From NCBI RefSeq assembly GCF_053078305.1, contig NZ_CP166879.1: a stretch of 64,000 nucleotides of DNA; one strand, 5' to 3'. Shown piece after piece: positions 3,001-9,000 of this stretch. Each line of letters begins with the position of its first letter. Positions within the stretch are counted from its first letter, which is position 1. The position numbers are program-made.

Positions 3001-6000
3001 AACAGAAAATATTATCCTCAGAACCCCGCAGATCATTTTCAAATGAGTTTAAACTTCAAATGGTTAAACTGGCTTCACAACCAGGAGCCTCTGTTGCCCG
3101 TATTGCCCGGGAACACGATATCAATGATAACCTCCTGTTCAAATGGCTCAGGCTCTGGCAGAACGAAGGGCGTATATCGCGGCGTCTTCCGGTAACAACC
3201 TCTTCTGGCGCTGGCGTTGAATTATTACCTGTTGAGATAACGCCTGATGAGCAGAAAGAGCCTGTGGCGGCTCTTACTCCGCTTTTATCCACTCCTTCAC
3301 AAAGCACAGTCAGTGCCAGTTCCTGTAAAGTTGAGTTCCGCCACGGTAACATGACGCTGGAAAATCCTTCACCAGAGCTGCTCACGGTGTTGATCCGTGA
3401 ACTGACCGGGAGGGGACGATGATCTCGCTCCCATCAGGCACTCGAATCTGGCTGGTTGCCGGCGTTACTGATATGCGTAAATCCTTCAACGGTCTGGGAG
3501 AACAGGTACAACATGTGCTGGATGAGAACCCCTTCTCCGGTCACCTGTTTATCTTTCGCGGCCGACGGGGTGACACGATTAAAATTCTGTGGGCTGATGC
3601 TGATGGTCTGTGCCTGTTCACCAAACGTCTGGAGGAAGGCCAGTTTATCTGGCCTGCGGTGCGTGACGGTAAGGTATCCATTACCCGCTCGCAGCTGGCA
3701 ATGCTCCTCGATAAACTGGACTGGCGTCAGCCCAAAACATCCCGCCTTAATGCACTGACAATGTTGTAAAAATGTCATGGCCGGATTATAAAAACGGTCA
3801 TGAGTCGGAAATACCTCATTCGTATCACTGAGCTGGAAAGGCTGCTCTCTGAGCAGGCTGAAGCCCTCCGTCAGAAAGATCAGCAACTGAGTCTGGTTGA
3901 AGAGACGGAGGCCTTCCTGCGCTCTGCACTGGCACGTGCCGAGGAAAAGATCGAAGAGGAGGAGCGGGAAATAGAACATCTGAGGGCCCAGATAGAAAAA
4001 CTGCGCCGGATGTTGTTCGGTACCCGTTCTGAAAAACTGCAGCGTGAGGTTGAACAGGCTGAGGCCCAACTGAAACAACGCGAACAGGAAAGCGATCGTT
4101 ACAGTGGGCGTGAGGATGACCCGCAGGTTCCCCGCCAGTTGCGACAGTCACGTCATCGTCGTCCGTTACCGGCACATCTTCCCCGTGAAATACACCGTCT
4201 GGAGCCTGAAGAAAGTTGTTGCCCGGAGTGTGGCAGTGAGCTGGATTATCTGGGGGAAGTCAGTGCTGAGCAGCTGGAACTGGTGAGTAGCGCCCTGAAA
4301 GTGATCCGCACTGTTCGGGTAAAAAAAGCCTGTACAAAATGTGACTGTATAGTTGAAGCGCCAGCGCCGTCCCGCCCGATAGAGCGCGGCATCGCGGGCT
4401 CCGGATTACTTGCCCGCGTGTTAACGGGAAAATACTGCGAACACCTGCCACTGTATCGTCAGAGTGAAATCTTTGCCCGCCAGGGCATCGAACTGAGCCG
4501 GGCATTACTCTCCAACTGGGTTGACGCATGTTGTCAGTTAATGACTCTGCTGAATGATACCCTGTACCGTTACGTGATGAACACCCGCAAGGTTCACACT
4601 GACGACACACCAGTAAAAGTGCTGGCAGCGGGCAGAAAAAAGGCAAAAACAGGACGCATCTGGACGTATGTCCGGGATGACCGGAATGCGGGCTCATCAG
4701 AGCCACCGGCGGTCTGGTTCGCCTACTCACCAGACAGGCAGGGAAAACATCCGGTACAACACCTTCGTCCCTTCCGGGGTATCCTGCAGGCGGATGCGTT
4801 CAGCGGTTACGATCGGCTGTTCAGTGCAGAACGTGAAGGTGGTGCACTGACAGAAGTTGCGTGCTGGGCCCATGCCCGGCGAAAAATCCACGATGTATAC
4901 ATCAGCAGCAAAAGTGCGACGGCAGAAGAAGCCCTGAAGCGAATCAGTGAACTGTACGCCATCGAGGATGAAATACGGGGATTACCGGAGTCAGAGCGTC
5001 TTGCCGTCAGGCAGCAGCGAAGCAAAGTGTTACTGACGTCACTGCATGAATGGATGGTGGAGAAGAATGGTACGCTGTCGAAAAAATCCAGACTGGGCGA
5101 AGCGTTCAGCTATGTACTGAATCAGTGGGATGCCCTCTGTTATTACAGTGATGACGGTCTGGCGGAGGCGGATAATAATGCTGCGGAAAGAGCGCTTCGT
5201 GCAGTCTGTCTCGGAAAGAAAAACTTTATGTTCTTTGGCAGCGATCACGGCGGCGAGCGTGGAGCACTGTTGTACGGGCTGATCGGCACCTGCCGTCTGA
5301 ACGGTATCGATCCGGAAGCGTATCTGCGCCATATCCTGAGCGTACTGCCAGAATGGCCTTCCAACCGAGTTGATGAACTCCTGCCATGGAACGTAGTACT
5401 CACCAATAAATAAGCGTCAATACGGTGCTCCGTTGACGCTTACGAAAATTTATCCCCTGTTGCTGTAATTCATCTGTCAGCGCAACAAGGTGGCGCATAC
5501 TGCGCCCCAGCCTGTCCAGTTTCCAGACCATCAGCGTGTCACCGGGTTTTAGTTTCTTCAGTGCCCGCTTCAGTCCCGGCCGCTGCGTTGTTTTTCCGCT
5601 CATTTTATCTTCAAAAATCAGCTCACATCCTGCACATTCCAGCGCATTTCTTTGTAAACCTGTGTTCTGGTCATTTGTTGATACGCGTATATAGCCAATC
5701 AGCATGTATTTACCTTCCTTAAAAAGAGGTGAAAATGCCTTTTAAAGCAGATATACGACATACCTGAAACCTCGGTTTACGGGAAACGGTAAACAGGGCT
5801 GCAAATGCCCTGCCATCGAATGGTACAGCCGTAGCGGCAAACAAGCTGTCTGCGGCACGTAAAATTAACGGTGTTGCGTTCGATGGCACAAAGGACATCA
5901 CTATTACATCCGGGATGACCCAGTCTACAGCAGACGGCAGATATGTTCGTAATGTGCAACTTGGTGCTCAGAGCCGCCACTCTCCTGCGGGTAATGAAGT

Positions 6001-9000
6001 CACCTGGGATTATAAAACGCCAGCAGGTTGTATGCTTTCTGGTATTCATGTGCAGGATACCGGCTCCCGGTCTGCGGATAATATCGGTGGGGTCTATTAT
6101 CGCCCGGTTCAGATTTATATTAATAATGCCTGGAGAACGGTAAGTTCAGTGTAAACCACAGAAAAGGGTGCTGAATGCACCCTCTGAATTATTCCGGTTT
6201 TTCCGGCCAGGAAATCGCCAGGTAATGTCTCTCGCTGGCAATATCATTAAGGTGCATTTCTTTAAGCTGTCGGATATACGCCATCCAGCGCGTCAGCTTT
6301 AATTTATTTTCATCGCTAATCATGTCCAGTTTTAGTTCTGTTTTCCAGTCATCCACGGTTCCGTTGGCCTCCTGGAGCAGCGATGAACGGCGATTTTCAG
6401 CAACCGTATTCCAGTTTACCGGCACCTTTGATATCAGGCCATCAGAAAACTGCCAGTTACCGTCAATATTCACACCTTCCGGCAGTTGGTCCACTTCAAC
6501 AACAGTAAAACCCGCCGGATATAAAGCAGAGACATCTTCAGCAACAGAGCAGATAATACCCGTTACAGGCGAAATACAGAGTTTGTATTTCTTTGTGAAA
6601 AGCGGGATAGATTCATAAAAATCCCTTCCGTCCTCACTCTGGAAATACTGAACATTCTCACCATAGGGTTTGTGTTCTGGGTAATATCGTTTTACGTTAA
6701 TAAGCTCCATTATTTCACCTTGTTTTTGTTGAAAAGACAAAATCATCATATATTTATTCAGATAATCTGTTTTTTGAACTACTGCACTTTTATGCGCTGG
6801 AAGCTGTTTTCCACGAACCATTTATCAGAAACTGAACAGGTCGATAATATGCGGTTACCGTCGCATTACCATCACCAGCGACATCAAGCCCTGTAAGTAC
6901 GCATCCGTCAGGAACTTCAAAAATATTATATTGCATTCCAATCGTTGACCTTGAACCTCTTCGAATGCTTTGAACATAACGTGAGTCAGCCACAGACTGC
7001 GTCATCCCCGATGTAATATTTATATCCTTCGTTCCGTCGAAAGGAACCCCATTAATATTTACTGGGGTGGCGAGTTTATTCGCTGCCACGGCGGTTCCAC
7101 CCGATGGCAGGGCATCAGCAGCCTTATTTACCGTTTCCCGTAAACCGACGTTATCGATAAAGGTTCCTTTGTCCGGGATATCCGCGCCATTCTGGTCCCT
7201 GCGCAGATAACGCGCATCGCCTTCTCCCTTACTGTAAACATCAAGATTCAGACGAGCCGTCGGTTTATCCGGTACATCGTCAAAATTCCGGGATTTCTCC
7301 AGTGCTCCCACATCAGCAGCAGCCAGGCTGTCTTTTCCTGATAATCCTCCCAGCCCCAGATGACGGCGGGCAGCAGCCTGTGCTTCTGCACCTGCATCCG
7401 CAATCTCCTTAAGGTTGTTTTTCCGGCTGTATGCGTTTGCTGCAATGATTGCCTTAATGGCTGTCACCAGCTGGTTCAGTTTTGCCTTATCCGGCTGAAC
7501 CTTTCCTTCTGTCAGAATGGCAAGCAGCTCTGCCTGCACGATGTTCAGCCAGTCCTGACCGATATAGCTGATCCCTTTGCGTCCGTCACCTTCAGTAAAC
7601 CATTTAACCTGCGTACCCTGAGAGGGGGCCAGTGGTGGCATATCGGTCACACCTGAATTGTTGTCGACAAAATACATTACTCCGTCTCCTCATGACTGTT
7701 TTCGTACAGATATAAAAACGTCTGCCAGGCTGGCTTATAACGGTTTAAAATGCACTCCAGCGCACTTGCATCATAAATTCGCAGTGGTGTAAGAATATCG
7801 TCCAGTACATTCATGTGACGGTATCCCACCGCCGTCTTCACTGTCACAATACTGATCCATTGTGATTCCGGTGATGGCTGGATATCTATTTCATAACCAA
7901 ACTCTGCCGCAAACCGGATATAAAATTCACGGTTAAGAGAGGGTTTCATCCGGTATTTATTCCCGGCATAACGCTGACGCTCCTGAATGGTTGCGCCGGT
8001 CATATCACATTCCGGTAACCCCAGATAACGCTCCCAGTCTTCCAGTAGCAGACGGGATGAATCAGGAAAACGTTCTGCCAGCATCTGGTTACCGGTCCAG
8101 GAAACACGCTCCGTGGAATGACTGAGACCCAGGCACAAAGCTGCAAGAACGGATGACGGCCGCTTATCCCATGCCAGCCCGTCAGGCAGCAACTGCAACA
8201 GGGCGCGCTGATGCGGGGTCAGGGTTACAGCCATGTGATTTCCCCCACGGTCAGCAACTCTGTATCTCCGGCCATTACGGACTTCAGCGGACTGCGAACT
8301 TCAAAATCCTCCAGTCCTTTCACCCCTGCAACAGCCCGCCAGAATGATGAAGGCAATACAAGTCCACCCGGCCGCGATTCGTTATAAAGCAGGTCCGTTA
8401 ATGCCTGTTTTACGGCAGCCTGATTTTCCGGCGTTTTGGGTACAATCCTGATCTCAAACGCCACCGGCTTATTGGTCAGCTTAAACACGCTGATTGTCGG
8501 CCCAAGTGGCTGACCAACGGGCTGGCCCGTCGCCGGATCATCATGACTGCGGATATAATCCGCCACCCGCTTCACATCACCTTCTCCGGGGAAAATGTCA
8601 GGGTTATTATCCTGAACAAAAGTCACACCAACACTACCCGCCTCTGGCCATTCAGGCTTACACCATGCCCGCGTCACGCCCGGTACTTCCCGTGCCCAAC
8701 GTTCAAAATCATACTGTGTTCCCCCTGATGGCGGGTTCTGTACCCGGAATACCAGCCTGGACAGCAACTCCGGCACCGTTTCCACATCCGCACCACCGGT
8801 GAGTCCCGTGCCGGTAACCGTGGCTGTCTGGTTGATGCCCGCCTGTGGCGTGATAAAGGACAGGCGGGTTCCGGTCGGGGTATTTCCGGCGCGCCCCGCA
8901 CTTTCCGCCTCCACATTAACATTCAGTGTTCCGGCTTTTCCGGTCGCAGAGCCGGTGATGCGGTACACAACACCATCGCTTCGCTGAAGGAGTACGCCTT

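What the first reader, a model, noticed from the sequence alone, without database searches (positions are those of the whole stretch)
5760..7160. Compact invertible segment with two alternative tail-fibre tips but only one tail-fibre assembly gene
Two inverted hix/gix-like sites (5760-5785, 7135-7160; 22-bp perfect identity around a GTAAACC-core palindrome) bracket ~1.37 kb. The expressed fibre C-terminus (6790-7147, minus) and a silent, in-frame alternative C-terminus (5774-6154, plus) diverge just after the shared GLRETVN motif. There is a single tfa gene (6189-6710, minus); after inversion it would be antisense to late transcription, so the alternative tip would lack a co-transcribed chaperone. 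Mu and P1 carry a dedicated chaperone for each orientation.
Basis: partly seen in the sequence, partly recalled or inferred. Interest (0 to 1): 0.55.

Follow-up and report, generated by a model that had tools for sequence, protein, structure and literature searches.

The report
Mu-type tail-fibre switch, one chaperone
This is the host-range switch of a known family of Mu-like E. coli prophages: a 1.4-kb flippable DNA segment that swaps the tail-fibre tip. It carries one fibre-assembly chaperone instead of Mu's two, and in this copy an insertion sequence has broken the flipping enzyme.

Summary
Two inverted 26-bp gix/hix-type sites (5760-5785, 7135-7160) bracket 1,373 bp. The segment holds an expressed fibre tip (X, minus strand), one tfa gene behind it, and a silent in-frame alternative tip (Y, plus strand). 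No second tfa exists anywhere in the 64 kb.

It is not a one-off. It is the standard G-segment equivalent of Sp18-type Mu-like prophages (E. coli O157 Sakai ECs_4989-4992), present in 230 of 5,426 complete E. coli genomes. Every locus inspected has exactly one tfa. Twenty genomes sit in the window's orientation and 148 in the flipped one, where tfa is antisense to the fibre gene. A 2009 paper already called this region an "atypical" invertible host-specificity region.

The Y tip is under strong purifying selection, and Tfa types mix freely with unrelated tip types. Published Sakai microarray data show tfa and the silent X cassette co-induced separately from neighbouring phage genes. My best reading, which is inferred, is one promiscuous Tfa serving both tips and transcribed independently of the late operon in the flipped state. 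Interest is modest: a conserved variant of a known system.

The parts
5760..5785 (.). Left crossover site (gix/hix-type, 26 bp; central dinucleotide TC at 5772-5773)
   Evidence: Inner half-site GGTTTACGGGAA differs from Mu GGTTTACAGGAA by one base.
7135..7160 (.). Right crossover site (inverted copy; central GA at 7147-7148), inside the fibre ORF at the GLRETVN codons
5774..7146 (.). Invertible segment, 1,373 bp (a 'mini-G' segment)
   Evidence: The same segment occurs in both orientations relative to its flanks in other E. coli genomes.
5774..6154 (+). Silent alternative fibre C-terminus (Y cassette, 126 aa plus stop). The distal tip is 58% identical to a P2-like H tip.
   Evidence: dN/dS 0.08-0.12 for the distal domain.
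6163..6185 (-). Hairpin terminator between the tfa stop and the Y stop; the T-tract is present only in the tfa direction
   Evidence: The structure is kept with a different sequence in the divergent locus L017.
6189..6710 (-). The only tail-fibre assembly gene (tfa, 173 aa; type T1)
6711..6789 (-). 79-nt AT-rich spacer between the X stop and the tfa start, with its own Shine-Dalgarno sequence. Mu S-U and P2-like H-G are 2-3 nt apart.
   Evidence: The spacer is 79, 120 or 51 nt in different lineages and is not conserved in sequence.
6790..7146 (-). Expressed fibre C-terminus (X cassette, type X1)
7147..7677 (-). Constant N-terminal part of the tail fibre (Sc), homologous to Mu S residues 1-191
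   Evidence: 5yvq_A, E 1e-50.
5442..5705 (-). 5' fragment of the Gin-type invertase gene (codons 1 to about 87)
   Evidence: 75% identical to Mu Gin.
2606..2910 (-). 3' fragment of the same invertase gene. Rejoining the two fragments and removing one target duplication gives an intact 186-aa protein.
2911..5441 (+). IS66-family element (tnpA 2997-3422, tnpB 3419-3769, tnpC 3800-5413) inserted in the invertase gene. The 8-bp target duplication ACGAAAAT lies at 2903-2910 and 5442-5449; the element ends are ambiguous by 1-2 nt.
   Evidence: NF033517, 443 bits against a cut-off of 180. The empty site is seen in relative L007.
7677..8234 (-). Baseplate wedge gene (Mu gp48 / YmfQ family) immediately upstream of the fibre gene; marks the Mu-type tail module

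Best explanation
SHOWN.
- This is the host-range switch of an Sp18-type Mu-like prophage of E. coli. It is a Gin/gix-type site-specific inversion system homologous to the Mu G segment but shrunk to 1,373 bp.
- The fibre is a short Mu S homologue. Its constant N-terminus is read from outside the segment, and inversion joins it to one of two C-terminal cassettes of about 120 aa: X (followed on the same strand by the only tfa) or Y (facing the other way, with no tfa).
- In the window the segment lies X-on, so late transcription runs Sc-X, spacer, tfa, terminator.
- The cognate invertase gene is cut in two by an IS66-family element. This copy is therefore frozen unless a related invertase (Pin- or Gin-type) from elsewhere in the genome acts on the intact sites.
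- The one-tfa layout is the conserved design of the whole family, not a local deletion. Both orientations occur in nature.

INFERRED.
- The single Tfa is a generalist that assembles both tips.
- When the segment is flipped (Y-on), the X-tfa unit is transcribed as its own message. Its promoter would lie at the invertase-proximal boundary or in the proximal part of the cassette. The message ends at the conserved terminator, so Tfa is still made although it is antisense to the late operon.
For: Identity.
- Sc matches Mu S 1-191 and the tip matches Mu S 436-504.
- The invertase is 75% identical to Gin, and the sites are near-identical to Mu gix.
- Synteny with Sakai Sp18 ECs_4984-4993.
- The host flank is E. 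coli.

Frozen state.
- The invertase is split by the IS with an 8-bp duplication, and relative L007 shows the empty site.

Conserved design.
- All 19 Sp18-type loci with the whole module that I examined have exactly one tfa. They include lineages whose Tfa is only 61% identical.
- Both orientations occur: 20 against 148 genomes. Single genomes also carry one copy each way.

Y is functional.
- Y is intact in all loci, with dN/dS 0.08-0.12.
- Y-type tips are Tfa clients elsewhere: the P2-like H-G pair, and a Mu-type prophage whose S tip is 58% identical to Y (59% by tblastn) and is followed by U.

Generalist Tfa.
- Observed combinations are X1-T1, X2-T1, X2-T2 and X3-T2. X tip types are 26-39% identical to each other, and T1 and T2 are 60-64% identical.
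- Outside the family, an X1-like tip in Hafnia phage yong1 pairs with a Tfa only 30% identical to T1.

Independent expression.
- In Sakai, whose reference orientation is Y-on, tfa (ECs4990) and the silent X cassette (ECs4991) rise together by log2 of about 2.1 at entry to stationary phase.
- Their profile is unlike ECs4986 and ECs4993 and much stronger than ECs4989 (PMC2241611, Table 2 and Additional file 2).
- tfa has its own Shine-Dalgarno sequence after a 51-120-nt spacer, and a structurally conserved terminator follows it.
Against: - No promoter above background was found upstream of X-tfa by two scans. The intergenic region is too conserved among relatives for footprinting.
- The microarray values are relative, come from uninduced cells, and the orientation of the segment in that culture was not checked.
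- The X1 and Y1 distal tips are only 37% identical. That is the same as Mu S against S', which do have separate chaperones.
- Promiscuity is inferred from co-occurrence, not from binding.
- The hairpin lacks a T-tract in the Y direction. Late read-through in the Y-on state could therefore run antisense to tfa.
Confidence: 0.6

Rival explanations
1. The Y-tipped fibre does not use the resident Tfa. It either folds unaided or borrows a Tfa from a co-resident prophage, since E. coli strains with this element usually carry several tfa genes. The resident tfa would serve only X.
For: tfa is always physically linked to X and never to Y. In L010 against the window, Y stays 78% identical while tfa drops to 62%. 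The usual partners of Y-like tips are U/G-type Tfas, which are only about 30% identical to T1.
Against: Y-like tips elsewhere always have a tfa immediately downstream. A temperate phage that depends on a helper prophage for one of its two host ranges would be fragile. tfa is co-induced with the silent cassette in a Y-on strain. Tfa types also swap between unrelated X tips, so linkage to X is not specificity.
Confidence: 0.2
2. Y-on is a non-infective or 'parked' state. The switch would be ON/OFF for fibre assembly rather than a choice between two host ranges, with Y kept as a recombination reservoir.
For: There is no co-transcribed chaperone in Y-on. Infectivity of Sp18 particles has not been reported in the papers read.
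Against: The Y distal domain shows strong purifying selection (dN/dS about 0.1) and comes in at least two divergent intact types. 148 of 168 scorable genomes are Y-on. An OFF state would not need a conserved receptor-binding-type tip homologous to the P2 H tip.
Confidence: 0.1
3. In the Y-on state, late transcription reads through the weak face of the hairpin into the invertase gene. That would raise invertase levels and flip some of the replicated genome copies, and those copies would then supply Tfa to the cell.
For: The terminator T-tract exists only in the tfa direction, and the invertase gene lies downstream on the late strand.
Against: This is purely structural inference. In Mu, from general knowledge, G inversion is too slow to matter within one lytic cycle. 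The model also predicts mixed-fibre particles. No data bear on it.
Confidence: 0.05
4. The single tfa is a recent degenerative loss of a second chaperone gene in a decaying prophage.
For: This particular copy is damaged: an IS sits in the invertase gene.
Against: Only 34 nt, all taken up by the hairpin, lie between the tfa stop and the Y stop, with no tfa remnant. The same layout is kept across lineages with saturated synonymous divergence. Sakai Sp18 is judged intact and is packaged (PMC2669165).
Confidence: 0.03

Closest known systems
Prophage Sp18 of E. coli O157:H7 Sakai (ECs_4989 tail fibre, ECs_4990 tfa, ECs_4991 silent tip, ECs_4992 invertase)
   Same: Same gene order, same single tfa, and same sites. 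The segment is about 91% identical in DNA and the invertase 99% identical in protein. [quoted passage not shown]
   Different: Sakai sits in the opposite orientation (Y-on) with an intact invertase. The window is X-on with the invertase split by an IS66-family element. Sc is only about 71% identical, and the window's Y allele is that of another sub-lineage (L001/L005), so the element is mosaic.
Bacteriophage Mu G segment with Gin (S-U | U'-S')
   Same: Homologous invertase (75%). Near-identical 26-bp sites at the same GL(Q/R)ETVN codons. Homologous constant fibre part and distal tip domain. Same position after gp47-gp48.
   Different: Mu's segment is about 3 kb with two chaperones (U and U', 56% identical) and long variable parts. 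Here the segment is 1.37 kb, the fibre shaft corresponding to Mu S residues 192-435 is missing, and there is one Tfa only 28-32% identical to U and U'. A 79-nt spacer and a dedicated terminator flank tfa.
P1 C segment/Cin and e14 P segment/Pin (from general knowledge, not tested here)
   Same: Din-family invertase next to a segment that swaps tail-fibre C-termini. The invertases cross-complement (Tominaga et al. 1991, recalled from memory).
   Different: As I recall, both carry a tfa for each orientation. The element here carries one.
Mu-type prophage of E. coli FDAARGOS_1059 (programmed inversion confirmed by long reads in PMC9881135)
   Same: An E. coli prophage with a Gin-type fibre switch. 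One of its tips is 58% identical to Y, or 59% by tblastn.
   Different: Classical two-chaperone layout: U (91% to Mu U) and U' (99% to Mu U').

Membership tests
Din-family (Gin/Cin/Pin/Hin) invertible tail-fibre host-range switch | Serine DNA invertase gene of the Gin family adjacent to the segment | tested here: met
   The rejoined ORF is 186 aa and 75% identical to Mu Gin over 181 aa. It lies 54 nt from the left site.
Din-family (Gin/Cin/Pin/Hin) invertible tail-fibre host-range switch | Invertase ORF intact, giving autonomous switching | tested here: not met
   The ORF is split after about codon 87 by a 2.5-kb IS66-family element with an 8-bp target duplication. The empty site is seen in L007.
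Din-family (Gin/Cin/Pin/Hin) invertible tail-fibre host-range switch | Two inverted 26-bp crossover sites with identical central dinucleotide | tested here: met
   Sites at 5760-5785 and 7135-7160 with core TC/GA. The inner half-site is 11/12 identical to Mu. These are the only two such sites in the window, and 0 of 100 shuffles gave a match.
Din-family (Gin/Cin/Pin/Hin) invertible tail-fibre host-range switch | Crossover inside the fibre ORF, so one constant N-terminus joins alternative in-frame C-termini | tested here: met
   The fibre is 295 aa in the present orientation and 303 aa after inversion in silico. The flipped form is the annotated gene in Sakai.
Din-family (Gin/Cin/Pin/Hin) invertible tail-fibre host-range switch | Both orientations found in nature | tested here: met
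   20 genomes are collinear with the window and 148 with the inverted construct. Both states occur within one genome. This could not be tested for this very copy.
Din-family (Gin/Cin/Pin/Hin) invertible tail-fibre host-range switch | A dedicated tail-fibre assembly gene behind each alternative tip (Mu U/U'; P1 and e14 likewise, from memory) | tested here: not met
   There is one tfa in the window and in all 19 family loci with the whole module that I examined. There is no remnant at E<=10. Mu has two.
Din-family (Gin/Cin/Pin/Hin) invertible tail-fibre host-range switch | Fis-dependent recombinational enhancer within the 5' part of the invertase gene | tested here: inconclusive
   The 5' 261 nt are retained next to the segment and align with Mu gin. 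One degenerate Fis-motif match is shared, at nt 71. No functional inference is possible.
Sp18-type Mu-like prophage | Synteny gp47 - gp48/YmfQ - S | X-tfa, Y | invertase - DUF6645 protein, within a Mu-type late region | tested here: met
   Same order in the window, Sakai and all relatives. DNA identity is 83-97.5% outside the segment.
Caudo_TAP tail-fibre assembly proteins (PF02413) | Profile match and homology to a structurally characterised Tfa | tested here: met
   PF02413 E 5e-18; phrog_136 E 5e-57; Mu U (5yvq_B) E 5e-15 over residues 19-147.
Mu S-type tail fibre | Baseplate-proximal N-terminal domain and C-terminal tip domain homologous to Mu S | tested here: met
   Residues 1-198 match 5yvq_A 1-191, and residues 230-295 match 436-504.
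Mu S-type tail fibre | Long central shaft (Mu S residues about 192-435) | tested here: not met
   The fibre is 295 aa against 504 aa in Mu. No sequence corresponds to the middle of Mu S.
IS66 family insertion sequence | TnpA-TnpB-TnpC genes, GTAAGCG terminal repeats and an 8-bp target duplication | tested here: met
   TnpC matches NF033517 at 443 bits (cut-off 180). ORFs of 141, 116 and 537 aa are present. The duplication is ACGAAAAT.

The most novel reading that the evidence does not exclude
A minimal 'shared-chaperone' host-range switch. One generalist Tfa assembles two tips that are only 37% identical. It would be kept available in both orientations because a fixed promoter at the invertase-proximal boundary reads into whichever cassette is silent. 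That promoter would be productive only when the silent unit is X-tfa.

A speculative extension: the promoter lies under the Fis-bound enhancer and is de-repressed when Fis disappears at entry to stationary phase, which would explain the timing of ECs4990/ECs4991 induction.

If true, Tfa-tip specificity is much looser than the Mu/P1 'one chaperone per tip' picture suggests.
Probability: 0.4. Interest if true: 0.5.

Novelty: new variant of a known kind. Interest (0 to 1): 0.35.

Why it matters
Invertible fibre segments are the textbook example of phage host-range switching, and the textbook cases pair each tip with its own chaperone. A conserved natural system that manages with one chaperone gives a compact test bed of 1.4 kb and three ORFs. 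It can be used to ask how specific Tfa chaperones really are and how a gene inside an invertible segment stays expressed in both orientations. That is useful for engineering fibre swaps in phages and tailocins.

The element sits in about 4% of complete E. coli genomes, including most O157:H7, so its host range also bears on the mobility of a transposable prophage in pathogenic lineages. For this particular window the practical message is that the switch is disabled in cis by an IS insertion.

Tried and rejected
- Promoter search upstream of tfa and X in both orientations, using the consensus scan and my own position-weight scan with a background from the window. Nothing exceeded background.
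- Phylogenetic footprinting of the invertase-to-site intergenic region. The sequences are too similar, and the one divergent locus is too different.
- Search for a Mu C-type late-promoter box by comparing putative Plys, PI, PP and Pmom regions. No shared motif could be defined reliably, so I abandoned it.
- Fis and enhancer check in the invertase 5' region. Inconclusive.
- Spacer conservation. The X-tfa spacer is not conserved, so an internal promoter there is not supported.
- Search for a second tfa or a second invertase in the window. None found.
- Search for an isolated phage with this layout. None found. ZF40 and yong1 are not invertible, and only prophage copies inside Stx-phage records match.
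- Species-representative genome scan. No Sp18-type segment outside E. coli.
- Literature searches by locus tag and by PDB entry 8JU3. Only the 2007 microarray paper was informative.
- AlphaFold modelling of Tfa-tip complexes was considered and not run. The tool folds single chains, and the fibre is an intertwined trimer.

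
Full report
**1. What is in the sequence**

5760-5785 reads ATACCTGAAACC-TC-GGTTTACGGGAA. 7135-7160 reads TTCCCGTAAACC-GA-CGTTATCGATAA. They are inverted relative to each other and share 22 consecutive identical bases.

A 20-mer over the core occurs only at these two places in the 64 kb at up to 3 mismatches, and none of 100 shuffles gave a match. The inverted repeat extends inward for 181 nt at 75%.

I compared the sites directly with the G-segment boundaries of phage Mu. 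Mu reads TTATCCAAAACC-TC-GGTTTACAGGAA on both sides. The inner half-site differs by one base, the central dinucleotide is identical, and the following codons (GL[Q/R]ETVN) are the same.

The sites bracket 1,373 bp (5774-7146). On the minus strand a 295-aa tail-fibre gene (6790-7677) enters the segment at codon 178. On the plus strand an open cassette (5774-6154) is in frame, and inversion in silico gives a 303-aa fibre.

Between the two cassettes lies one tfa gene (6189-6710, minus strand, 173 aa). It matches Pfam Caudo_TAP, phrog_136 and Mu U (PDB 5yvq_B, E 5e-15). Searching the whole window with five diverse Tfa proteins at E<=10 finds no other tfa-like sequence.

**2.

The invertase gene next to the segment (start at 5705, minus strand) stops making sense after about codon 87. 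An IS66-family element with tnpA, tnpB and tnpC occupies 2911-5441; its TnpC scores 443 bits against NCBIfam's cut-off of 180.

The element is flanked by an 8-bp duplication, ACGAAAAT. The 3' part of the invertase gene continues at 2910 down to 2606. Rejoining the halves gives a 186-aa protein 75% identical to Mu Gin.

A 97.5%-identical relative (L007) shows the uninterrupted site. No second invertase is encoded in the window. This copy therefore cannot flip by itself. The sites and the 5' part of the gene are intact (the enhancer lies there in Mu, from general knowledge), so a related invertase encoded elsewhere could still act. That last point is an inference.

**3. What it is**

The flanking chromosome is E. 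coli: amyA-fliDST is 98.9% identical. The fibre's constant part matches Mu S residues 1-191 and its last 66 residues match the Mu S tip, residues 436-504. The roughly 245-residue shaft of Mu S is absent. The upstream genes are the Mu gp45-gp48 baseplate set.

The module is that of prophage Sp18 of O157:H7 Sakai, ECs_4989-4992. Asadulghani et al. [quoted passage not shown] They score its host-specificity function as atypical, judge the prophage intact, and find its DNA packaged.

The module is present in 230 of 5,426 complete E. coli genomes.

**4. The one-chaperone layout is the family's design**

I examined 21 Sp18-type loci from E. coli genomes and IMG/VR contigs. The 19 that carry the whole module all read the same way:
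- constant part;
- cassette X, then tfa on the same strand;
- cassette Y facing them;
- invertase;
- a DUF6645 protein.

Each has exactly one tfa. The set includes lineages in which Tfa is only 61% identical and synonymous sites are saturated.

Only 34 nt separate the tfa stop from the Y stop, and they form a hairpin, so there is no room for a remnant. The hairpin is kept as a structure with a different sequence in the divergent locus L017. Its T-tract follows only in the tfa direction.

By contrast, Mu and a Mu-type E. coli prophage whose inversion was confirmed by long reads (PMC9881135) have S-U | U'-S'.

A scan of one genome per bacterial species found no Sp18-type segment outside E. coli. 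No isolated phage in the phage collection has it.

**5. The switch works in nature**

Querying with the window's orientation gives 20 genomes with near-full-length collinear matches. Querying with a computationally inverted segment gives 148, including Sakai.

Both states occur within O157:H7. Strain SMN197SH3 and one IMG genome each carry two near-identical copies, one in each state. Four divergent variants fetched individually were all Y-on.

The majority state is therefore the one in which tfa is antisense to the fibre gene. The counts are not phylogenetically independent, so the bias itself is not interpretable.

**6. Is Y a dead remnant?**

No. Y is intact in every locus. Its distal domain has dN/dS of 0.08-0.12 at dS of 0.7-0.9. 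It occurs in at least two divergent types.

Its tip is 58% identical to the tip of a P2-like H fibre. It is also 58% identical (59% by tblastn) to the S tip of the Mu-type prophage above. Each of those tips is followed directly by its own Tfa. Y-type tips therefore look like ordinary chaperone clients.

**7. How might one chaperone do?**

*Specificity.* Across the family I find these X-tip and Tfa combinations:
- X1 with T1 (the window and Sakai);
- X2 with T1;
- X2 with T2;
- X3 with T2.

The X tip types are only 26-39% identical to each other, and T1 and T2 are 60-64% identical. Outside the family, an X1-like tip in Hafnia phage yong1 is paired with a Tfa 30% identical to T1. There is thus no one-to-one pairing, which argues that these Tfas are generalists.

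As a caution, X1 and Y1 are 37% identical in the distal domain. That is exactly the figure for Mu S against S', which do have separate chaperones.

*Expression.* tfa is not coupled to X. A spacer of 79 nt (120 or 51 nt in other lineages) and its own Shine-Dalgarno sequence precede it, against 2-3 nt in Mu and the P2-like phage.

In a published Sakai time course (Bergholz et al. 2007, PMC2241611), ECs4990 (tfa) and ECs4991 (the silent X cassette) appear together in the table of genes changing more than 4-fold at entry to stationary phase (log2 2.13 and 2.12). The supplementary profiles of the two are nearly superimposable:

| Gene | Before the transition | After the transition |
|---|---|---|
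| ECs4990 (tfa) | about -1 | about +1.3 |
| ECs4991 (silent X) | about -1 | about +1.1 |
| ECs4989 (fibre gene) | about -0.45 | up to about +0.46 |

The baseplate gene ECs4986 and ECs4993 behave differently from all three.

In the Sakai reference orientation nothing but the invertase gene's antisense strand lies upstream of X. This therefore points to a separate X-tfa transcript starting near the invertase-proximal boundary.

I could not find a convincing promoter by sequence. The array data are also relative, come from uninduced cells, and the orientation in that culture was not verified. This step remains inferred.

**8. Verdict**

The finding is real and correctly described. It is a member of an already catalogued prophage family. 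It is also a conserved variant, with one chaperone and short cassettes, of the Gin/G-segment kind. In this window it is disabled in cis by an IS insertion.

How the Y tip gets its chaperone has not, as far as I could find, been addressed in the literature. The evidence here favours a shared, independently transcribed Tfa (about 0.5-0.6). The rivals are a trans-supplied chaperone or none (0.2) and a non-infective Y state (0.1). Interest is modest.

Noticed in passing
window 458-2515 (minus): A 685-aa protein just downstream of the invertase carries a SASA sialate O-acetylesterase domain (residues 119-315, E 7.5e-13) plus DUF6645. It belongs to phrog_143 (unknown function). It varies from 52% to 99% identity among otherwise close relatives. 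It looks like a NanS-p-type esterase cargo gene sitting between the invertase and com/mom.
   Followed up: partly
window 5774-5930 and 6990-7146; L007 and L010: The first ~50 codons of the X and Y cassettes are identical within some loci (L007, L010) but only about 75% identical in DNA in the window. This suggests gene conversion between the two arms. Where the arms are identical over about 150 bp, RecA-dependent inversion might add to site-specific inversion.
   Followed up: partly
L007 and L009 (IMG genome 2617271340); NZ_CP024056.1 (hits H48, H135): Single genomes hold two near-identical copies of this transposable prophage with the segment in opposite orientations. In L007 and L009 the flanks are 99.6-99.9% identical and the segment is 100% identical but inverted.
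   Followed up: partly
L003 (Sakai) 3722-4526; PMC2241611 Table 2 and Additional file 2: ECs4990 (tfa) and ECs4991 (silent cassette) are induced more than 4-fold at entry to stationary phase in uninduced Sakai and cluster with RpoS-type genes. The timing coincides with the known loss of Fis, whose binding sites would lie in the adjacent invertase 5' region. That link is speculative.
   Followed up: partly
L047 (Citrobacter braakii ATCC 51113) 6001-9850: A Mu-type fibre gene is followed by a partial tfa, a Y-like tip and at least two further tip fragments on the opposite strand, next to a Gin-type invertase. It may be a multi-cassette, Min-like arrangement.
   Followed up: no
L048 (Edwardsiella anguillarum) 6001-9400: A Mu-type S-U pair is followed by only the C-terminal 70 codons of a U'-like gene on the opposite strand, then an invertase. 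It is an apparently decayed two-chaperone segment and a useful contrast to the clean one-tfa layout here.
   Followed up: no
window 5719-5901 (minus) and 7067-7210 (plus): Small ORFs run antisense across each crossover site. PGAP annotates the invertase-side one as a 61-aa hypothetical protein in many genomes. They are probably artefacts of the conserved inverted repeat.
   Followed up: no
L044 (E. coli JMF1) 4596-5591: In this relative an IS903B element has removed the first 25 codons of the fibre gene together with the upstream tail genes. It is another example of IS damage to the module.
   Followed up: no
L041 (E. coli 2018-166) 2014-3019: Here a T1-type Tfa (94% identical to the window's) sits behind an X2 (Mu-S-like) tip. 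Its first ~12 codons resemble the T2 type, which marks a recombination junction at the very start of tfa.
   Followed up: partly
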